A stretch of 6,567 nt of DNA from a virus (IMGVR_UViG_2681813316_000019:1-6567), one strand, 5' to 3'. Counted from the first letter of the stretch, positions 1 to 6,567 are shown. Notes: generated by a model not told the origin, from the letters alone. Translations and numbers: made by a program.

Positions 1-140
1 CTATCGGCGAAGGTGAGTTGATGGCTCATGATGTCCCTCTGGGATGCGCTCCGGATGAATATGATGATCTCATATCAGGAACTTGTTCGCACCTTCCCTA
101 ACTAACACTACGTTTCACACAGCAATTACATGGAAATAAC

Positions 141-488
141 ATGACTATCAAAGCGACTGACATAGAGATTCTTCATCGTTATGCTGAAGGGGTAATGGAA
201 CGTTCTAACCATCATGCAAAAAATGTTGGTGCAGCCGCTCTTACATTGCTAGGAGGTGTTATCTGGAAAGCCCTGCCCGGATCAATCGAGATAAGAACGT
301 ATAACGGAAGTCTTGCAAATATGGTGTGGTGGCAAAGCGAAAGAACATTAAAAAATTATGCAATCTCATACAACCATAATTCATGTGAAATTGAAATGAG
401 AGATGAATCAGTCAAAAGTGCTGTATTATTTAGCATTTCCAACGAAACCACTCCAGAAAAAATATTATCACAGCTTTCTGAGCTTTAA
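141..488 (+). CDS. Hypothetical protein (115 aa), family not recognised; oriented opposite to the adjacent replication operon
   Basis: Intact ATG-initiated ORF 141..488 from the ORF track. Hand count of sample lines gives roughly 40% G+C against about 50% in P/O. No motif I can assign. Sits beyond the 3' end of P where lambda has ren/nin genes, but on the other strand. Confidence 0.45.
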   Translation: MTIKATDIEILHRYAEGVMERSNHHAKNVGAAALTLLGGVIWKALPGSIEIRTYNGSLANMVWWQSERTLKNYAISYNHNSCEIEMRDESVKSAVLFSISNETTPEKILSQLSEL

Positions 489-493
489 TTAAA

Positions 494-511
494 GGCGGTG
501 CTAACACCGCC
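494..511. terminator. GC-rich hairpin (GGCGGTG-CTAA-CACCGCC) between the convergent ORF 141..488 and gene P; possible bidirectional terminator
   Basis: Perfect 7-bp inverted repeat with 4-nt loop seen directly. On the minus strand it is followed by TTTAATTAAA (partly U-rich); on the plus strand the tail is not U-rich. Placed between two convergent genes. Confidence 0.35.
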
Positions 512-692
512 CATACCATTACTCCACATCTTACGCAACTTGATAATTATGCTCTATTAAATACCCACAATATTTCATCAATGCATGGGTCAGCTACAAA
601 ATGTTTACCGTGGTAATTCCTGTTTTCGCAACATCTCAAAAGAACAATAAACACTGTATTTCTTCAAGTAACGAAGAATCTTTCTTTGCCCG

Positions 693-1394
693 TCATACAC
701 TTGCTCCTTTCAGCCCAAACTTAGCTTTGATTTCTGCGATCTTCGCCAGAGCCTGTGCACGATTTAGAGGTCTACCGCCCATAACAGGAAGTTGTTTTAC
801 TGGTTCAGGTATCGTCTCACCACGGTTAATTCGCGCTGTCATACAGGTCAGTTCATCGGCAGCCTTGCGCCGTAATTCCGCGTCAGTCAGCGCATTGGCC
901 CGCATGTTCTGGTACAGGTTGGTAACCAGCCAGTAGTGCGCGTTTGATTTCCATGGATAAGACTCTGCATCCGGATAAAGGCCACGCTTCCGGCAATACT
1001 CGTAAACCATATCAACCAGCTCGCTGGCGTTTGGCAGCCCGGCGTTAACGGATGCTTCTTCCCGGCACCAGGCGACAAACTGCCCGGGTGATGGCAGGAA
1101 TGGTCGATTCTGCCGACGGGCTACGCGCATTCCTGCGTTAACCTGTTCCATTGTGGTGATCCCGTTTTCCCGGAAAGCCAGAACCCACTGGCGGCGGATT
1201 TCGTTCAGTTCGTTCTGGTCACGGTTAGCCAGGCTCGCCGGGAAAGTTGCCAGTAACTGGCTGAACACACCGTTGATGATCTGCGCTACCTGCTGTACCT
1301 GCGGCTTTTCGTCGTACTGTTCCGGCATGTTGTTGGCGATCCGGCGCATCTGCTCACGGTCAAAGTTAACCATCTGTGCGGCGATGTTTTTCAT
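693..1394 (-). CDS. P: Replication protein P (DnaB helicase loader), lambda-type
   Basis: 233-aa translation matches phage lambda P as I remember it almost residue for residue along its whole length (MKNIAAQMVNFDREQMRRIANNMPEQYDEKPQV...AKIAEIKAKFGLKGASV). ATG at 1392-1394 overlaps the TGA stop of the upstream O gene (ATGA). Confidence 0.95.
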   Translation of the reverse strand: MKNIAAQMVNFDREQMRRIANNMPEQYDEKPQVQQVAQIINGVFSQLLATFPASLANRDQNELNEIRRQWVLAFRENGITTMEQVNAGMRVARRQNRPFLPSPGQFVAWCREEASVNAGLPNASELVDMVYEYCRKRGLYPDAESYPWKSNAHYWLVTNLYQNMRANALTDAELRRKAADELTCMTARINRGETIPEPVKQLPVMGGRPLNRAQALAKIAEIKAKFGLKGASV

Positions 1395-2320
1395 AAATCC
1401 ACCCCGTAAATCCAGTCAGTGTTTGTCAGGTCGAGTTTTGATTTTCCGGTTGTCACGCCAGCCTGTTGCTTGTTACGGTTGATTTCGAGTTGGGTCCACT
1501 TGTCGCGGAGTTTGGCCGGACTCAGCACGTTACCGGACCAGAAGTTGTCCTGGCATGCCCAGCGGAACAGCACGCACATGTCGCGGTGGTTACGTCCGTC
1601 ACGTTCACGCATCAGGCGGATATCGTTAGCCCACCCTGCAAAATTCGGTTTTCTGGCTGATGGTGCGATGGTCTTCACCATGTCAAACATCCACTCTGCG
1701 GCGGTCAGGTCTTCTGCTGTCCCCCACTTGCTGCCGCTCTGAATCGCAGCATCCGGTTTCACCACAGGAAGGTCGTTTTCTGGCTGGTCAGAGTATTCGC
1801 CAGAATTCTCGGACGAATAAGGTTTTATATTGTCTTTTGTTAGTTTGTCTTTTGTGTTTACCTGATTCGGGTAAGTGCCTTTACCTGATTTGGGTAAACT
1901 TTTCTTACCTGATTCAGGTAAATTTACCTCTTTCAGGTAAACTTTATTTTTCTTACCTGATTCGGGTAATGTTGACCATTCACTGACCACATTATTAATG
2001 CCGATATTCCGCCCGCTCTGAATAAAAATCCCACGCTTTACCAGAACACTTTTTGCAGCAGAACACTTGTGCGGCAATATCCCGGTCAACTCGGAAAGTT
2101 GCTCGTTGCTCACCCAATCCAGTTTTTTATTAAAGCCATATGTTTTGCGCATGACAGCCAGGAAGACCAGAAGCTGGTGCTGTGTTAATCCGGCCAGCAT
2201 CACAGCTTCCAGCAACTCATTTGCAATGCGCGTATAACCATCATCGAGATCTGCCACGCGCGGCTCCTTTTGTGCCACATCCGGCACTGGAAAATTGAAT
2301 ATCTCAGCAGTGTTTGCCAT
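1391..2320 (-). CDS. O: Replication initiator protein O (origin-binding); C-terminal domain lambda-like, N-terminal DNA-binding region divergent
   Basis: C-terminal about 60 aa (RDMCVLFRWACQDNFWSGNVLSPAKLRDKWTQLEINRNKQQAGVT...LDLTNTDWIYGVDL) matches lambda O closely; the N-terminus MANTAEIFNF resembles lambda O MTNTAKILNF. Start chosen at the ATG at 2318-2320 because it is preceded by GGGAGGAATT (strong SD). The ORF-track extension to 2410 adds 30 residues with no RBS and would overlap the upstream gene. Iterons lie inside the coding region, as in lambda. Confidence 0.9.
   Translation of the reverse strand: MANTAEIFNFPVPDVAQKEPRVADLDDGYTRIANELLEAVMLAGLTQHQLLVFLAVMRKTYGFNKKLDWVSNEQLSELTGILPHKCSAAKSVLVKRGIFIQSGRNIGINNVVSEWSTLPESGKKNKVYLKEVNLPESGKKSLPKSGKGTYPNQVNTKDKLTKDNIKPYSSENSGEYSDQPENDLPVVKPDAAIQSGSKWGTAEDLTAAEWMFDMVKTIAPSARKPNFAGWANDIRLMRERDGRNHRDMCVLFRWACQDNFWSGNVLSPAKLRDKWTQLEINRNKQQAGVTTGKSKLDLTNTDWIYGVDL
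1858..1969. repeat. Origin of replication: five 17-bp iterons (consensus TTACCTGATTCGGGTAA, arms TTACC/GGTAA) inside gene O, with an AT-rich segment at about 1806-1857 on the O-downstream side
   Basis: Seen directly: copies start at 1858, 1881, 1905, 1924 and 1953, each an imperfect palindrome TTACC-N7-GGTAA. The flanking segment 1811-1860 is strongly A+T-rich. Architecture matches ori-lambda (iterons then AT-rich region within O), but the iteron sequence is not the lambda one. Confidence 0.8.
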
Positions 2321-2406
2321 AATTCCTCCCGCAATGAGTGCGTTACGATTTGCACCTGAAAGTCGGCTCTGTTCCCGCAGACCGGCTTTCGCCATTTCTG
2401 AGCCTG

Positions 2407-2952
2407 TCATATTGCCCCCAACATGGTGGTAACCATCGCCATCAATGGACCAGCCAGATCCGGGTCCACACGAAACATCGACACAATACCTTCACTAATT
2501 TCCTTCAGTTTCTGGTGGCGTGGTGCGTTGAGAATGACTGCCTGTTTTGCCTCACTGAGTTCCTTTTCCATTTCAGCCAACCTAGCCATGAAGCTATCCT
2601 GCTCAACCAGGTAACCGCGATATTCCAGCGGTAGTACCGCTAGAATTGCCGGGGTCAGTTCACGCACGTTATTTCGGTATTTTTCAGAATCGAATTTGTT
2701 ATCGAGGAAGCGGAACAGCTTCTGGCGTGCACGGCTGACATCATCAGGGAAATCGATGGCGCCGCCGCCCTGCTCCCGATACTCATTCACAATGAGTGTG
2801 GCAACGACATCCTGATTATCTTCAGCCGACCAGGCGCGGACGGCATCACGGATTTTTTCGTGGCCTGGCACCTGTTTTGTTTGAGAACGATTTATCACCG
2901 CAGTCGGGCTAAATCCGCTAGTCTGTTGGTATGTAAGTGGTTGCATAGTCAT
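2407..2952 (-). CDS. YdaT-like protein at the cII position (function uncertain)
   Basis: 181-aa ORF immediately downstream (24-bp gap) of the Cro-like gene and upstream of O. Segments NEYREQGGG and TPAILAVLPLEYR resemble the Rac-prophage YdaT family as I remember it, which is why I call it YdaT-like. True start may be the second ATG (2944-2946), which has better spacing to an AAGG. Confidence 0.55.
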   Translation of the reverse strand: MTMQPLTYQQTSGFSPTAVINRSQTKQVPGHEKIRDAVRAWSAEDNQDVVATLIVNEYREQGGGAIDFPDDVSRARQKLFRFLDNKFDSEKYRNNVRELTPAILAVLPLEYRGYLVEQDSFMARLAEMEKELSEAKQAVILNAPRHQKLKEISEGIVSMFRVDPDLAGPLMAMVTTMLGAI

Positions 2953-2976
2953 TGCCTTATCAGTTAACGCCGCAGT

Positions 2977-3204
2977 TTAGGCGGCAGAATTACTCGCGTT
3001 AAACAATGGTGCGAGGTCGGGACGAATATCTGCTGGTTTAATCTTTCCACCAGTGGCTGAGACAATTTTCATTACATAGCGGGCATCAATTCCGCCACCG
3101 TGTAGCCAACGCCAAACTGTGGGTTGGGCTACACCGCATAGATCTGCCAGTCGTTTTTGACTACCTGTAATACTGATTGCGAGTTGAATGGTTTGATTTG
3201 TCAT
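2977..3204 (-). CDS. Cro-like small HTH regulator (YdaS-like)
   Basis: 76 aa from the ATG at 3202-3204 (the ORF-track start at 3210 is a TTG). HTH segment GSQKRLADLCGVAQPTVWRW and the downstream IRPDL motif resemble YdaS/Cro-type regulators. Divergent from the repressor gene across a 110-bp operator region. AGGA lies 8 nt upstream. Confidence 0.75.
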   Translation of the reverse strand: MTNQTIQLAISITGSQKRLADLCGVAQPTVWRWLHGGGIDARYVMKIVSATGGKIKPADIRPDLAPLFNASNSAA

Positions 3205-3314
3205 TATCAATTCCTATTGGTATTGCAATGAATGAATAATAGCAATGCGTATTAATCCAAGTAATAGCAAAACGTGTTTTGACCATCAATACGCAAGCGT
3301 ATAAATTAAAACTT
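3205..3314. promoter_or_regulatory. Divergent immunity control region (OR-like): repeated operator motif TAATAGCAA(T) and candidate PR and PRM promoters
   Basis: TAATAGCAAT at 3237-3246 and TAATAGCAA at 3262-3270, plus a related palindromic ATTGCAAT at 3222-3229. Candidate PRM on plus strand: TTGAC(C) 3279-3284, about 16 bp, TATAAA 3300-3305, placing the transcription start at or just before the repressor ATG at 3315. Candidate PR on minus strand: TTGATG (plus coords 3284-3289), 17 bp, TATTAC (3261-3266). Promoter hexamers are by eye, not scored. Confidence 0.55.
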
Positions 3315-4007
3315 ATGAAAAAAGAAACTCTTGCTGATCGCTTAAACCTAGCGATGGAACAATCTGGAATGTCTCAAGGCGCTCTTGCAAAGGCGTCTGG
3401 CGTAGCTCAACCCACAATCTGGAGACTGACAAGCGGCAACGCGCGCGGCTCAACAAAAATTGTTGAAATAGCTAATGCATTGGGTGTTCGAACAGAATGG
3501 CTCTCATCAGGCATAGGCCCGATGAGAAATGACGGTCAACAATCAGGGAAGCCTGCTGTCAGCCATTCAAAATACTTCAAGATTGACGTTCTTGATATAG
3601 AAGTCAGTGCCGGGCCGGGTGTAATCAACCGTGAGTTTGTAGAAGTTCTACGCTCGGTTGAGTACTCGTTTGACGATGCTCGTCACATGTTCGATGGCAG
3701 GAAGGCGGAAAATATCCGCATCATTAACGTGCGTGGTGACAGCATGTCAGGAACGATCGAACCAGGTGATCTTCTGTTCGTTGATATCACGGTTAAATCT
3801 TTCGACGGTGATGGTATCTATGCGTTTCTGTATGACGACACAGCCCATGTAAAGCGCCTGCAAATGATGAAGGATAAGCTGCTGGTTATCTCTGATAACA
3901 AGAGCTACTCACCGTGGGACCCGATCGAGAAAGACGAGATGAACCGGGTATTCATCTTCGGGAAAGTCATCGGAAGCATGCCGCAGACGTATAGGAAGCA
4001 TGGGTAG
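3315..4007 (+). CDS. CI-type prophage repressor: N-terminal HTH_XRE domain plus C-terminal LexA-like S24 peptidase (autocleavable, SOS-inducible type)
   Basis: HTH MSQGALAKASGVAQPTIWRLTSG; candidate Ala-Gly cleavage site in EVSAGPGV; catalytic Ser motif VRGDSMSG and Lys in AHVKRL, as in LexA and lambda CI. Start set at the ATG at 3315 (MKKETL...); the ORF-track start at 3279 is a TTG. No SD precedes 3315. Confidence 0.85.
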   Translation: MKKETLADRLNLAMEQSGMSQGALAKASGVAQPTIWRLTSGNARGSTKIVEIANALGVRTEWLSSGIGPMRNDGQQSGKPAVSHSKYFKIDVLDIEVSAGPGVINREFVEVLRSVEYSFDDARHMFDGRKAENIRIINVRGDSMSGTIEPGDLLFVDITVKSFDGDGIYAFLYDDTAHVKRLQMMKDKLLVISDNKSYSPWDPIEKDEMNRVFIFGKVIGSMPQTYRKHG

Positions 4008-4118
4008 TGAAGGACGTGTCAACTCTATTTTGTAAGCTATCCAGACTCACAGTTGCAGATCGACGAGTAACTTACATACAGCACAAAAAAACAATATGCG
4101 AGTGCTTTTAGACTAGAC

Positions 4119-4133
4119 TTACCATAATGGTAA
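4119..4133. promoter_or_regulatory. 15-bp palindrome TTACCAT-A-ATGGTAA overlapping the first ATG of the toxin-like gene; candidate operator for the module
   Basis: Perfect 7-bp arms seen directly. Resembles the ACCT-N-AGGT type palindromes bound by MqsA-family antitoxins (from memory). Position at the 5' end of the three-gene module. Confidence 0.35.
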
Positions 4134-4537
4134 CAAGTATGATTCTTAGCAGATATGTGGGAACTCCTCCCCGTGATGGCGAGGACAGAAAGATTCAAGG
4201 TGGTCCGCTTTATTTAGATATCATTGATTTGATTGATGAATGTGACACACTGCCTTGGACTAAACGGTGTATCAGGGATGTTCAATCGCTTTCTTTAGAT
4301 GCAGATGACATCAAATCTATGGTGATAAAAGCAGTCACTAAAGGGAGATTTCTAGGTTCAGAATGGTGTCAAGGCAGTAAACCAGGTGTATGGGCAGCTT
4401 GTGATGCTTATAGCTTTGAGCACTCATTTTGGTGCCAAGCTATGCATAAAGAACTTAATAACGAGTTCTACATTAAATTTTTTGTAAACATTACTGGCAA
4501 TGTAGTGCTTACAGTATCTCTTCATCTCTCTAATTGA
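4127..4537 (+). CDS. MqsR-like toxin (RelE-superfamily mRNA interferase fold), putative toxin of a TAC module
   Basis: 136-aa ORF. C-terminal half (DDIKSMVIKAV...WCQAMHKELNNEFYIKFFVNITGNVVLTVSLHLSN) aligns by eye with E. coli MqsR (DFYKSMTT...YLKITVIHDVLIVSFKEK). Toxin-first gene order matches mqsR-mqsA. About 25 N-terminal residues are extra; an alternative start is ATG 4139. No clear SD. Confidence 0.55.
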   Translation: MVTSMILSRYVGTPPRDGEDRKIQGGPLYLDIIDLIDECDTLPWTKRCIRDVQSLSLDADDIKSMVIKAVTKGRFLGSEWCQGSKPGVWAACDAYSFEHSFWCQAMHKELNNEFYIKFFVNITGNVVLTVSLHLSN

Positions 4538-4561
4538 GTGATGATAAATGAGGATTTTTAT

Positions 4562-5149
4562 ATGAGAAACAACAACATATGTCCAGTTTGTGGTGTAGGT
4601 CATCTCACCGTGGAGATGGAGTATGATGATGTTACTTATAAAGGGGAAACAAAAAATCTCCCAATAAGGTTTTCTGTGTGTGATCAATGTGGTTCGGAAA
4701 CTGCCACACCAGTCGATTTACGAGAAAACAAACGAATTTTCAATGAATACAAAAAGTCTATCGATGGACTTTTAACAGGAAAAGAATTAAAAAAAATTAG
4801 AACTGAAGTATGGATGATAACCCAGCAAAAGGCATCCTCTATATTTGGTGGGGGGCCTAAGGCATTTTCCAAGTATGAATCTGATGATGTCATTCAATCA
4901 GAAGCAATGGATAAACTGATGCGTTTAGCAGCAGAAGTTCCTGATGCATTCAAAAGGTTACGGGAATTATCTGGCGAAATCAAAGTTGAAAGAACAGTCT
5001 CATCATCTAAATCTTTACCTATATGGAAATCTGAAGCAAAAGCACAATTTGAAAACGATGATCAGGGATTTGACAGCAAATCACCAGCCCAAACAAAAAT
5101 GAATCAAACATCAATAAAGATAAAAACTGTTGCTAAGCGGGTAGCATGA
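4562..5149 (+). CDS. MqsA-like antitoxin: N-terminal zinc ribbon (CPVC...CDQC) plus HTH_XRE domain, with a C-terminal extension of about 55-60 aa
   Basis: ICPVCGVGH...CDQCGSE resembles the MqsA Zn-binding domain (MKCPVCHQGE...YCVHCEE). ITQQKASSIFGGGPKAFSKYESDD matches the MqsA HTH region LTQKEASEIFGGGVNAFSRYEKGN. Start placed at ATG 4562, preceded by GAGGA with a 7-nt spacer; the ORF-track start at 4538 is GTG. The protein is about 65 aa longer than E. coli MqsA, mostly at the C-terminus. Confidence 0.75.
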   Translation: MRNNNICPVCGVGHLTVEMEYDDVTYKGETKNLPIRFSVCDQCGSETATPVDLRENKRIFNEYKKSIDGLLTGKELKKIRTEVWMITQQKASSIFGGGPKAFSKYESDDVIQSEAMDKLMRLAAEVPDAFKRLRELSGEIKVERTVSSSKSLPIWKSEAKAQFENDDQGFDSKSPAQTKMNQTSIKIKTVAKRVA

Positions 5150-5649
5150 TGAATGAACTTCTTAGATCAGCAATAGACGCATTATCAATAATGCATATCA
5201 ATATCAGAGAATCTAACTTTGCTTTTTCTGAAGGGTATAATAGCTTTAACTTCAACAGCATAAATAAGCAAACACAATCATTTCGTAAGATAAAAAAAAT
5301 CGAAGCTATTGAATTAGTAAGTGACGATGACTCATTAAAAAATGAGCTATATTACTCTTTTCACTACTCAGTTGGGCTTAGATTTATTGCAAAATCCGAA
5401 GAAACATCTAAAGACGAAAATGATGTTGATACAATTTTTTCTATAGAAGCAATTTTTGAGGCGATATATCGCTCAAAAAGAGAATTATCTAAAGAAGAGT
5501 TAGAAGAATTTGCTAAGCAAAATGTAGGTTTTAATGTATGGCCTTTTTGGCGAGAGTATGTTCAAAACAGCACATCCAGAATGGGAATTACTACAATAGC
5601 TATACCATTCTTTAAATTCAATAAATCAGACATACCTTCATTAGATTAA
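5146..5649 (+). CDS. SecB-like chaperone, putative third component of a TAC module
   Basis: 167 aa. C-terminal segment FNVWPFWREYVQNSTSRMGITTIAIPFFKF matches the conserved SecB segment [34 protein letters not shown]; IFSI and an acidic central region also align. Start ATG overlaps the antitoxin stop (ATGA at 5146-5149), suggesting translational coupling. Hand-counted G+C on one sample line is about one third. Confidence 0.6.
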   Translation: MMNELLRSAIDALSIMHINIRESNFAFSEGYNSFNFNSINKQTQSFRKIKKIEAIELVSDDDSLKNELYYSFHYSVGLRFIAKSEETSKDENDVDTIFSIEAIFEAIYRSKRELSKEELEEFAKQNVGFNVWPFWREYVQNSTSRMGITTIAIPFFKFNKSDIPSLD

Positions 5650-5663
5650 ATTCAAATATAACT

Positions 5664-5690
5664 CCCGGCTACCGTGCCGGGTTTTCTTTT
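5664..5690 (+). terminator. Rho-independent terminator ending the repressor-side operon (t_imm equivalent)
   Basis: CCCGGC-TACCGT-GCCGGG hairpin (6-bp GC stem) followed directly by TTTTCTTTT, 15 bp after the stop of the SecB-like gene. Confidence 0.8.
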
Positions 5691-5780
5691 GTCCCCTCCC
5701 CTCATCACACACCGTTCAAAAAACCACCACGACCTCACTTCAGTTATCGCTATGCGATGCAAGTCACAAAATTAATTCTT

Positions 5781-5860
5781 TTTGCTATCAAACATTTAAT
5801 ATCAAAACACATCAACTAATAGCAATAAGTATTGATATCACCAATAGCAATAGCTATTAT
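5781..5860 (+). promoter_or_regulatory. OL/PL-like region: operator motif copies shared with the OR region, overlapping a candidate sigma70 promoter for the leftward early operon
   Basis: TAATAGCAAT at 5817-5826 (exact 10-mer also at 3237-3246), AATAGCAAT at 5843-5851 adjoining palindrome AATAGCTATT (5849-5858), and reverse-oriented TTTGCTAT at 5781-5788. Candidate promoter: TTGATA 5832-5837, 17-bp spacer, TATTAT 5855-5860, with operator copies in the spacer. Confidence 0.55.
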
Positions 5861-6137
5861 CACCATATCGCAACAACACAACGATACGGCAACCACCTGA
5901 TTCACCGTTGCGATGACCGCTTAGATCCGCAGCTTGAATTTCAGCAGGCTTCGGGGAGTGCGAGGGATGAAACGGACGCGTGAACGTCGGTGTGACCAGC
6001 TGAAATCAACTCAACATTTCATACCTTAGTCGCTTCAACGAGGCGGCTTAGTTATGACAACCGGCGGCCATCCACCGCCTGAATACGCGCAGAAGTCTTT
6101 ATATGTTCAGCAGCCCAGCTTACGGGCAGGAGTTTTT

Positions 6138-6344
6138 ATGGTTCATCAACATTACGGAACGCAGACCGTTAATCGCGGTGCGGTCATGCCAGGAATGCTG
6201 GTCAAACGCAAAGATGGTACCTGGACTGCATCAGCTAATTTACGCGGACGACTTTATCTGCATCGCGGCATTGAGCGCACTTATACCCGTGACTTGCTCG
6301 TGGAAGTTTTTCTCGACGGACGCGGTAACGGCCTCAATCACTAA
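6138..6344 (+). CDS. Hypothetical small early protein (68 aa from ATG 6138), upstream of gam
   Basis: ATG 6138 is preceded by AGGAG with a 5-nt spacer. The frame is open back to 6030 (ORF track starts it at ATG 6054, 96 aa). Composition looks protein-like. No family recognised. Confidence 0.35.
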
Positions 6345-6419
6345 TCCCCTTTCCTGTTTTCCTAATCAGCCTGGCATTTCGCGGGCGATATTTTCACAGC
6401 CATTTTCAGGAGTTCAGCC

Positions 6420-6567
6420 ATGAACGCTTATTACATTCAGGATCGTCTTGAGGCTCAGAGCTGGGCGCGTCACTACCAGCAGATCGCCCGTGAAGAGAAA
6501 GAGGCAGAACTGGCAGACGACATGGAAAAAGGCCTGCCCCAGCACCTGTTTGAATCGCTATGCATCG
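6420..6567 (+). CDS. gam: Host-nuclease (RecBCD) inhibitor Gam, 5' portion only (continues past window end)
   Basis: Translation [49 protein letters not shown] matches the lambda Gam (GamS form) N-terminus as I remember it, with one conservative difference. AGGAG lies 7 nt upstream of the ATG. The window ends at 6567 inside the gene. Confidence 0.9.

What the first reader, a model, noticed from the sequence alone, without database searches (positions are those of the whole stretch)
141..511. Opposite-strand AT-rich ORF beyond P with its own hairpin: possible moron of unknown function
Where lambda has ren and the nin genes co-oriented with P, this window has about 200 bp of non-coding DNA, a GC-rich hairpin, and a 115-aa ORF on the other strand with lower G+C than the replication genes. 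I cannot assign a family. Independently oriented, compositionally distinct genes in this position are often lysogenic-conversion or exclusion cargo.
Basis: inference. Interest (0 to 1): 0.35.

Follow-up and report, generated by a model that had tools for sequence, protein, structure and literature searches.

The report
Prophage cargo gene of integron-cassette family
The opposite-strand ORF next to the phage replication gene P is a real, conserved, stand-alone cargo gene of a known but functionally uncharacterised protein family (Pfam PF18315, first seen as a Vibrio cholerae integron cassette), so the finding is a fairly ordinary prophage "moron" whose biological role remains untested.

Summary
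There is a 115-aa ORF at 141-488 (+), convergent with P (693-1394, -). A perfect 7-bp G+C-rich hairpin sits at 494-511 and 181 bp of non-coding DNA follow. ORF G+C is 38%, against 54% for P and 49% for O.

- Pfam PF18315 VCH_CASS14, E 4e-19.
- PHROG 5959.
- PDB 3IMO, E 9e-17; the AF2 model matches it at TM 0.78.

The family has 465 clusters at 50% identity and spans many phyla. Members are almost always stand-alone proteins of about 113 aa with no conserved partner gene. They occur as single integron cassettes, next to integrases or defence genes, and opposite-strand in the nin region of Citrobacter and E. coli lambdoid prophages. dN/dS is at most about 0.1.

The module is in 181 of 5426 complete E. 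coli genomes, whereas this P type is in 3170.

3IMO's ligand pocket and its polar entrance (Y14, R21, N60) are conserved. The most likely mechanism is therefore binding of a small amphipathic ligand. The role in the lysogen is unknown.

Three nuances:
- The hairpin's T-rich tail lies on P's strand, not the ORF's.
- In this window an IS5 sits 41 nt upstream of the ATG, cutting off the native upstream DNA.
- This allele has S93 at a near-invariant Gly.

The parts
1..96 (-). Left end of an IS5-family element (IS5D type). The InsH transposase start codon is the complement of 27-29 and the gene reads leftwards, away from the ORF.
   Evidence: 100% identical over 1-101 to IS5D insH in phage RCS47. 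window:3-29:- translates to MSHQLTFAD. Homology to IS-free relatives starts at 97.
97..100 (.). CTAA, the IS5 target site at the junction, 41 nt upstream of the ATG.
   Evidence: Alignment with O26 11368 and with L003, the same prophage at 99.95% identity without IS5. That CTAA is the known IS5 target is my own knowledge.
101..140 (+). What remains of the native 5' leader, with the Shine-Dalgarno GGA at 132-134.
   Evidence: Sequence. A purine-rich motif sits 6-8 nt before the ATG in all enterobacterial homologues. The candidate native extended -10 (TGCTATATT) lies left of the IS5 junction in L001/L003 and is absent from the window.
141..488 (+). 115-aa ORF, a PF18315 (VCH_CASS14) family protein. 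This allele carries S93 (A417) where the family and the other E. coli copies have Gly.
494..511 (.). Perfect 7-bp G+C-rich stem with a 4-nt loop, 5 nt after the stop codon. The T-rich tail (TTTAATTA, complement of 486-493) is on the minus strand and overlaps the ORF stop codon.
   Evidence: G+C-rich hairpins of different sequence directly follow the stop codon in L016, L018, L019 and L027. The L016 hairpin was scored as a minus-strand terminator.
512..692 (.). A+T-rich non-coding spacer that travels with the ORF module. The mosaic boundary with the P-containing segment lies at about 683-692.
   Evidence: No ORF longer than 35 aa and no Rfam match. Relatives that lack the module align only from 683 onwards. 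105-692 is found intact in 181 genomes.
693..1394 (-). Replication protein P (context; convergent with the ORF).
   Evidence: PF06992, E 8e-62; RefSeq annotation of relatives.

Best explanation
Bases 97-692 are a single-gene accessory module of the moron type, dropped into the variable slot just downstream of P in a lambdoid prophage.

The product:
[quoted passage not shown] The prototype is a homodimer.
- The most likely mode of action is binding a small amphipathic ligand rather than working with a partner protein. The ligand's polar or acidic head would be held by Tyr14/Arg21/Asn60, with the invariant His24/His25/His79 nearby. Its tail, up to about 15 A long, would lie in a buried hydrophobic pocket.

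Transcription:
- The gene is read on its own, against the direction of the phage early-right operon.
- The G+C-rich hairpin directly after its stop codon marks the boundary between the two convergent transcription units. By the position of its T-tract it mainly stops transcripts coming from P before they run antisense through the gene.

What is shown and what is inferred:
- Shown: real gene, family membership, fold, conserved pocket residues, stand-alone mobility, presence/absence polymorphism.
- Inferred: ligand binding by this protein, expression from the prophage, the direction in which the hairpin works.
- Unknown: the benefit to the lysogen. Phage exclusion or defence is the leading candidate only by context.

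In this window an IS5 insertion 41 nt upstream of the ATG has removed the native upstream DNA, so this copy may be silent or differently regulated.
For: Family and fold:
- PF18315, E 3.8e-19, 69 bits against a cut-off of 26.7. PHROG 5959, E 9e-80. PDB 3IMO, E 9e-17.
- The AF2 model (pLDDT 78) matches only 3IMO, at TM 0.78.
- 3IMO is a dimer with a deep hydrophobic pocket holding an unidentified linear ligand, with acetate bound by Arg21/Tyr14 at the entrance (PMC3548836).
- Of its 20 pocket residues, 12 are identical here and 7 of the other 8 stay hydrophobic (the eighth is A22S). Y14, R21 and N60 are kept.
- Across 117 diverse members these positions are 79-100% hydrophobic. Y14 is kept in 109/117, R21 in 99, N60 in 112, H25 in 111 and H79 in 106.

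Selection: dN/dS at most about 0.1.

Stand-alone mobility:
- 465 clusters, almost all 105-125 aa.
- 150 immediate neighbours in about 75 loci from many phyla share no conserved partner.
- It is a single cassette between VCR repeats in V. cholerae, with different neighbours in two strains.
- It lies alone on the opposite strand in Citrobacter prophage nin regions.

Polymorphism: 181 genomes carry the module, all full-length and at least 99.3% identical, against 3170 with this P type. Relatives have ren-like and emrE genes there instead.

Hairpin.

IS5.
Against: - No experiment on any family member shows a ligand, an activity or a phenotype. The ligand in 3IMO was never identified and could be a crystallisation artefact.
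- Consensus promoter scans are not above chance in the window or in the IS-free relatives. The candidate extended -10 overlaps the start of a divergent small gene in the Citrobacter loci, so its conservation may reflect coding.
- The hairpin lacks a canonical U-tract on the ORF strand, and in L027 on either strand.
- No homologue is found in any of 50,697 deposited phage genomes, so all enterobacterial copies may sit in defective prophages.
- The invariant His/His/His/Arg/Asn/Tyr cluster could equally mean catalysis.
Confidence: 0.55

Rival explanations
1. It is a single-gene anti-phage defence or superinfection-exclusion determinant, expressed from the prophage to protect the lysogen. Ligand binding would then be sensing or sequestration within that role.
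For: - Moron anatomy in a prophage accessory hot spot. In the IS-free relatives this slot also holds HEPN and an adjacent small protein, and a Bro-N/P22AR_C protein.
- Family members lie directly next to AbiU/AIPR in Serratia (35-nt gap) and DruA (55-nt gap).
- Other immediate neighbours include a TIR cassette of PDC-S35 type, SoFic-like Fic, ThsA_Macro, SduA_C and C5-methylases.
- Genes 3-5 kb away are mostly housekeeping.
- About 18% of V. cholerae integron cassettes of unknown function showed anti-phage activity when tested (bioRxiv 10.1101/2024.07.02.601686).
Against: - No hit to any of 5027 PADLOC models at E <= 1.
- The protein has no recognisable effector (nuclease, TIR, pore or similar) and no transmembrane segment.
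- Neighbourhood enrichment is what any island-borne accessory gene would show.
- Many loci have purely housekeeping or unrelated neighbours.
- The integron paper does not mention this family.
Confidence: 0.2
2. It is a counter-defence 'sponge' that the phage or mobile element uses to soak up a host immune signalling molecule.
For: - It is a small oligomeric protein of about 113 aa with a conserved buried pocket.
- It is carried by mobile elements and often lies beside signalling-type defence genes such as TIR and ThsA_Macro.
Against: - The pocket is hydrophobic and linear, up to about 15 A, which suits nucleotide-derived messengers poorly.
- The gene is oriented against the lytic early operon.
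- There is no homologue in 50,697 phage genomes and no BFVD structural match.
- It is common in chromosomal integrons and islands of non-phage origin.
Confidence: 0.06
3. It is a nucleic-acid-associated protein, for example a small DNA- or RNA-binding regulator or nucleoid-associated factor.
For: - At least four representative clusters fuse the domain to a Lys/Arg/Ala/Pro-rich, histone-H1-like basic C-terminal tail: P0131, P0136, P0139 and P0107. P0109 has a Pro/Ala-rich tail with a single KKKH patch.
- The 3IMO authors noted a strongly positive beta-sheet surface.
Against: - The E. coli protein has net charge -2 and the family median is 0.
- It has no tail and no known DNA-binding motif.
- The best-conserved residues line the internal pocket, not the sheet surface.
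Confidence: 0.08
4. In this particular window the gene is a silenced or decaying passenger. IS5 has cut it from its promoter, and the G93S change at a near-invariant glycine impairs the fold.
For: - IS5 sits 41 nt upstream of the ATG and its transposase reads away from the ORF.
- The only good -10-like element of the IS-free relatives lies left of the junction.
- Position 93 is Gly in 109/117 family representatives and in the O26 11368 copy, which differs from the window only at A417. Most of the 181 genomic copies show that same single mismatch at 99.8% identity.
Against: - The ORF is intact.
- The S93 allele also exists without IS5 in L003, which is 99.95% identical over 6.4 kb, so it is not tied to decay.
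- From my own knowledge, IS5 insertions upstream of genes can activate as well as silence them (bgl, flhDC).
- A weak TTCACA-17-TAACAT match remains at 114-142.
Confidence: 0.3

Closest known systems
Vch_cass14 (PDB 3IMO), founding member of Pfam PF18315, a Vibrio cholerae chromosomal-integron cassette protein (Sureshan et al. 2013, PMC3548836)
   Same: - Same Pfam family and same fold (TM 0.78), same length, stand-alone single gene.
- 12 of the 20 pocket residues are identical and 7 of the other 8 stay hydrophobic (A22 becomes Ser).
- The entrance triad Y14/R21/N60 and the HH...NH motifs are kept.
   Different: - Only 32% identical, with a 2-residue insertion after position 67.
- Carried by a lambdoid prophage with its own leader and hairpin, not as a promoterless cassette between attC (VCR) sites.
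- Three pocket positions change size or polarity: I15A, A22S, A37L.
Morons of lambdoid phages (Juhala/Hendrix concept; for example lambda bor and lom, or DLP12 emrE in this same post-P slot)
   Same: - An extra gene between genes that are adjacent in relatives.
- Different G+C, own orientation, flanking hairpin, patchy distribution.
   Different: - Promoter and expression in the lysogen are not demonstrated.
- The hairpin's T-tract faces the other strand.
- No phenotype is known.
Lambda ren and the nin-region genes
   Same: Same map position immediately after P. Relatives of this prophage have a ren-like wHTH gene there.
   Different: No sequence or fold relation, opposite strand, and not part of the pR operon.
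Single-cassette anti-phage systems of sedentary chromosomal integrons (bioRxiv 10.1101/2024.07.02.601686)
   Same: The same kind of vehicle (a small single-gene integron cassette) for part of the family. Defence genes are frequent neighbours.
   Different: This family is not among the reported systems, has no PADLOC match, and has no effector-like domain.

Membership tests
Pfam PF18315 (VCH_CASS14 integron cassette protein family) | Profile HMM score above the curated gathering threshold | tested here: met
   69.1 bits against a cut-off of 26.7, E 3.8e-19, covering profile positions 2-92 of 97. phmmer against 3IMO gives E 8.7e-17.
Pfam PF18315 (VCH_CASS14 integron cassette protein family) | Two-layer alpha+beta sandwich, helices alpha1-alpha2, then an antiparallel sheet, then alpha3 | tested here: met
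   The AF2 model has H5-22, H29-43, five strands and H105-113, with pLDDT 78. Foldseek matches 3IMO chains A-D at TM 0.73-0.81, prob 1.00, and nothing else below E 0.3. The short beta1 of the crystal structure is not called in the model.
Pfam PF18315 (VCH_CASS14 integron cassette protein family) | Deep hydrophobic pocket with polar entrance Tyr14/Arg21/Asn60 | tested here: met
   By sequence only. 12/20 pocket residues are identical, 7 of the other 8 stay hydrophobic (A22 becomes Ser), and the entrance triad is identical. The pocket geometry of the model was not measured.
Pfam PF18315 (VCH_CASS14 integron cassette protein family) | Homodimer through the helix faces; bound ligand | not testable with these tools
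   Only single-chain prediction was available, and there is no biochemical data for this protein.
Moron (autonomous accessory transcription unit in a prophage) | Extra DNA between genes that are adjacent in related phages, with patchy distribution | tested here: met
   Relatives sharing 683-6567 at about 98-99% identity carry a different post-P segment of ren-like wHTH and emrE. The module is in 181 genomes, against 3170 with this P type.
Moron (autonomous accessory transcription unit in a prophage) | Nucleotide composition distinct from the neighbouring phage genes | tested here: met
   38.2% G+C against 54.1% (P) and 48.7% (O).
Moron (autonomous accessory transcription unit in a prophage) | Own promoter | tested here: inconclusive
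   Consensus scans are at chance level. A TGCTAT(A/G)TT extended -10-like motif lies 51-69 nt upstream of the ATG in E. coli, L016, L018 and L027, but it overlaps a divergent ORF there, and in the window it is removed by IS5.
Moron (autonomous accessory transcription unit in a prophage) | Own terminator | tested here: inconclusive
   A strong hairpin lies 5 nt after the stop codon, and positionally equivalent hairpins occur in 4 other prophage homologues. However, the U-tract is on the opposite strand. The scan calls no terminator in the window and a minus-strand one in L016.
Moron (autonomous accessory transcription unit in a prophage) | Expressed from the repressed prophage | not testable with these tools
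   No transcriptome data are accessible, and no paper mentions the protein.
Integron gene cassette | ORF bounded by attC recombination sites within an array next to an integron integrase | tested here: not met
   In the window there is only the 18-nt hairpin, no attC-like long imperfect palindrome in 97-700, and phage genes on both sides in the IS-free relatives. By contrast the V. cholerae homologue lies between two VCR repeats.
Known anti-phage defence systems (PADLOC-DB v2) | Match to a defence-system protein model | tested here: not met
   No family at E <= 1 for the window protein, nor for an alphaproteobacterial member (protein 9).
Type II toxin-antitoxin pair | Conserved adjacent partner gene | tested here: not met
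   There is no recurrent partner among the neighbours of about 75 non-redundant loci; most neighbour clusters are singletons. The E. coli and Citrobacter copies are flanked by oppositely oriented genes.

The most novel reading that the evidence does not exclude
PF18315 is an unrecognised, phylum-spanning family of single-gene immunity-related modules, either defence or counter-defence. They would work by capturing a linear amphipathic small molecule, and they shuttle between integron cassettes, defence islands and prophage moron slots. This E. coli gene would then be a prophage-encoded representative that is easy to test in a model host.
Probability: 0.15. Interest if true: 0.6.

Novelty: new member of a known kind. 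Interest (0 to 1): 0.25.

Why it matters
The gene itself is not surprising. Prophages carry many such accessory genes, and this one already belongs to a Pfam family with a crystal structure.

Its modest value is as a lead. A structurally solved family of unknown function, found from cyanobacteria to myxobacteria, turns out to have a clade in E. coli, Citrobacter and Serratia prophages and islands, including EHEC O26/O157/O111/O103 strains. Genetics and phage-challenge assays are simple in these hosts.

If the gene affects phage resistance or another lysogen trait, it would give a first function to PF18315 and to a class of integron cassettes. For annotation, 'hypothetical protein' can be replaced by 'VCH_CASS14 family protein'.

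Tried and rejected
- NCBIfam and PADLOC scans of the protein: no hits.
- BFVD viral fold search: nothing below E 0.02, and TM at most 0.49. The PDB fold search gave only 3IMO; weak frataxin, LolA and RnlA hits had prob <= 0.23 and I rejected them.
- tblastn against 50,697 phage genomes: no match. Plasmids: only two alphaproteobacterial hits.
- The first genome-contig scan, with the close alignment, found nothing. The 117-sequence alignment was too diverse to derive patterns. A 19-sequence alignment worked.
- Rfam on 1-1000: only a chance-level IS009 hit at E 0.83. Small ORFs in the 181-bp spacer are all 35 aa or shorter and were not pursued.
- Promoter and terminator consensus scans in the window and in three of the four homologous loci were at or below shuffle expectation (L016 gave 5 promoter-like and 4 terminator-like matches, above its shuffles), so no promoter is claimed.
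- Fusion partners: one Clp_N fusion, one N-terminal repeat protein with no Pfam match, and basic low-complexity tails. These suggest nucleic-acid association but are too few to carry the argument.
- Conserved-partner hypothesis: rejected. The only recurrent immediate neighbours are tyrosine recombinases and a clade-restricted alphaproteobacterial set of a 165-aa unknown protein plus Fic.
- Integron attC reading of the hairpin: rejected.
- Literature: no paper holds WP_000152742. Only the 2013 structure paper names Vch_cass14. The integron-defence preprint does not mention the family.

Full report
**What is in the sequence**

The window is the immunity and replication region of a lambdoid prophage, read in reverse.
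- P lies at 693-1394 (-) (PF06992, E 8e-62) and O at 1391-2410 (-) (PF04492).
- A YdaT-domain gene sits in the cII position, followed by a cro-like gene and then a cI-like S24 repressor at 3279-4007 (+).
- The ORF of the finding is 141-488 (+), 115 aa. It is convergent with P and has a Shine-Dalgarno-like GGA 6 nt before the ATG.
- Five bases after its stop codon lies GGCGGTG-CTAA-CACCGCC (494-511), at -13.6 kcal/mol and z = -3.85. It is the only such stem in the window, against 0.46 expected.
- Next come 181 bp with no ORF longer than 35 aa and no Rfam match.
- G+C is 38.2% in the ORF and 37.7% in the spacer, against 54.1% in P and 48.7% in O.

Bases 1-96 are the left end of an IS5-family element.
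- They are 100% identical to IS5D.
- InsH starts on the complement of 27-29 and reads away from the ORF.
- Homology to IS-free relatives begins at the CTAA at 97-100.
- L003, an IMG/VR contig, is 99.95% identical to window 97-6485 and lacks the IS. It shows the pre-insertion state.
- No complete E. coli genome has this junction.

**The gene is real and belongs to a known family**

- The protein matches Pfam PF18315 VCH_CASS14 (69 bits, cut-off 26.7), PHROG 5959 (unknown function) and PDB 3IMO (E 9e-17). It has no NCBIfam or PADLOC match.
- An AF2 model (pLDDT 78) matches 3IMO at TM 0.78 and nothing else in the PDB or BFVD.
- An exhaustive profile search finds 465 clusters at 50% identity, almost all 105-125 aa and single-domain.
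- A genome scan finds members in Cyanobacteria, Myxococcota, Planctomycetota, Bacteroidota, Acidobacteriota, Nitrospirota, Campylobacterota, Actinomycetota and all the main proteobacterial classes.
- Among enterobacterial homologues dN is 0.17-0.30 while dS is saturated, which indicates strong purifying selection.

**How it sits in genomes**

Enterobacterial contexts:
- In E. coli the module (105-692) is single-copy and chromosomal. It is full-length and at least 99.3% identical in 181 of 5426 complete genomes, including O26, O157, O111 and O103 strains and others.
- By comparison, this P type is present in 3170 genomes.
- Relatives that share 683-6567 carry a ren-like wHTH gene and emrE after P instead.
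- In the IS-free E. coli copies, the co-oriented nin-type genes resume beyond the ORF: Bro-N/P22AR_C, HEPN, ybcN, ninE, rusA, Q.
- In Citrobacter the homologue (72-77% identical) again lies alone on the opposite strand in the nin region of Rac/Qin-like prophages, next to varying cargo.

Contexts elsewhere:
- In V. cholerae it is a single cassette between two VCR repeats, with different neighbours in two strains.
- In another integron it lies beside a TIR cassette.
- In several loci it sits just upstream of, and overlapping, tyrosine recombinase genes. In Serratia it lies 35 nt after an AbiU/AIPR gene, and in one locus 55 nt after DruA.

No conserved partner:
- Across 150 immediate neighbours from about 75 non-redundant loci there is no conserved partner. 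Most neighbour clusters are singletons.
- The recurrent Pfam families are integrase (6), Fic (3) and C5-methylase (2), with single cases of ThsA_Macro, SduA_C, AIPR, TIR, HipA and ArdC.
- Genes 3-5 kb away are mostly housekeeping.

The gene is thus a self-sufficient passenger of small variable islands.

**Likely mechanism**

- The 3IMO paper describes a homodimer. Each monomer has a deep hydrophobic pocket, up to about 15 A long, holding an unidentified linear ligand. A polar entrance (Tyr14, Arg21, Asn60) binds acetate (PMC3548836).
- Mapped through the phmmer alignment, 12 of the 20 pocket residues are identical in the window protein and 7 of the other 8 stay hydrophobic (A22 becomes Ser). 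The entrance triad is intact.
- Over 117 diverse members the pocket positions are 79-100% hydrophobic. The best-conserved residues are Y14, R21, H24, H25, N60, Y77, H79, G38 and G93.
- I therefore consider binding of a small amphipathic ligand with an acidic or polar head group the most likely molecular activity. Catalysis by the His/Arg/Asn/Tyr cluster is a close alternative. This step is inference; nothing has been measured for any member.
- The biological role is unknown. Defence or exclusion is favoured only by context and by the roughly 18% hit rate of unknown integron cassettes in a published screen, and it is not supported by any model match.
- A few members carry histone-like basic tails, which keeps a nucleic-acid-related role open.

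**The hairpin**

- As an intrinsic terminator it points the wrong way for 'its own' terminator. The T-rich run (TTTAATTA) follows the stem on the minus strand and overlaps the ORF's stop codon, while the plus strand continues CATACCATT.
- G+C-rich hairpins of unrelated sequence directly follow the stop codon in four other prophage homologues (L016, L018, L019, L027). The L016 hairpin was scored as a minus-strand terminator.
- The element therefore travels with the gene. It most plausibly insulates the gene from the convergent early-right transcript, and it may also stabilise the gene's own 3' end. Term-seq would settle this.

**This particular copy**

- IS5 lies 41 nt upstream of the ATG. The only decent -10-like element in the IS-free relatives is TGCTATATT, 56 nt upstream of the ATG. 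It is conserved as TGCTAT(A/G)TT in E. coli, L016, L018 and L027 but overlaps a divergent ORF there. In the window it is now on the far side of the IS.
- The window allele also has Ser at position 93 (A417). 109 of 117 family representatives have Gly there, as does the O26 11368 copy, which differs from the window only at A417. Most of the 181 genomic copies show that same single mismatch.
- The S93 allele predates the IS insertion, because L003 carries it without IS5.
- Whether this copy is expressed or fully active cannot be told from sequence.

**Verdict**

However, the family is assignable and already has a structure, so this is a new enterobacterial prophage member of a known, functionally uncharacterised kind. 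Interest is low to moderate. Its main value is that it offers a tractable E. coli entry point to the function of PF18315.

Noticed in passing
window 1-100: The end of an IS5D-type IS5 element is inserted at a CTAA, 41 nt upstream of the ORF. The transposase reads away from the ORF. No complete E. coli genome in the collection has this junction, while IMG/VR contig L003 is the same prophage (99.95% identical) without it.
   Followed up: yes
window 417 (codon 93 of the ORF): A417 gives Ser93 where 109/117 family representatives and the O26 11368 copy (which differs from the window only here) have Gly. Most of the 181 genomic copies show the same single mismatch. The same allele occurs in L003, so it predates the IS5 insertion.
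   Followed up: partly
window 4127-5649 (+): Three co-oriented low-G+C (30-39%) ORFs lie directly after the cI-like repressor, in the position of lambda rexAB: a 136-aa ORF with no Pfam hit, a 203-aa MqsA-family antitoxin (PF15731, E 2e-17), and a 167-aa ORF that RefSeq annotates as a SecB-like chaperone in a relative but that has no Pfam hit. Together they look like a toxin-antitoxin-chaperone type module that could be a prophage exclusion system.
   Followed up: partly
window 2407-2952 (-): The gene in the cII position carries a YdaT_toxin domain (PF06254, E 1e-29), as in Rac-type prophages, although the replication genes are lambda O/P type.
   Followed up: no
proteins P0131, P0136, P0139, P0109, P0107 (metagenomic family members): The VCH_CASS14 domain is fused to C-terminal tails in five clusters. 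Four (P0131, P0136, P0139, P0107) are Lys/Arg/Ala/Pro-rich and histone-H1-like; P0109's tail is Pro/Ala-rich with a single KKKH patch. P0159 fuses the domain to a Clp_N domain.
   Followed up: partly
L072, L077, L081, L090, L109 and related alphaproteobacterial loci (about 5001-6600): A clade-restricted arrangement. The family gene is followed, with overlapping stop and start codons, by an unknown 165-aa protein with no Pfam or PADLOC hit. In three of these five loci (L072, L081, plus L073, L074 and L076) a Fic-domain (SoFic-like) protein lies downstream; no Fic was found in L077, L090 or L109. This may be an operon.
   Followed up: partly
L022-L025 4206-6348 (Serratia marcescens) and L109 1853-4279: The family gene lies 35 nt downstream of, and co-oriented with, an AbiU/AIPR abortive-infection gene in Serratia. 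In an Acetobacteraceae MAG it lies 55 nt downstream of a full-length DruA (E 8e-291).
   Followed up: partly
L001 3588-5292 (E. coli O26:H11 11368, left of the ORF module): The same post-P accessory slot also holds a Bro-N/P22AR_C antirepressor-like gene and a HEPN-domain gene with an overlapping small partner. This slot is therefore a cargo hot spot in these prophages.
   Followed up: no
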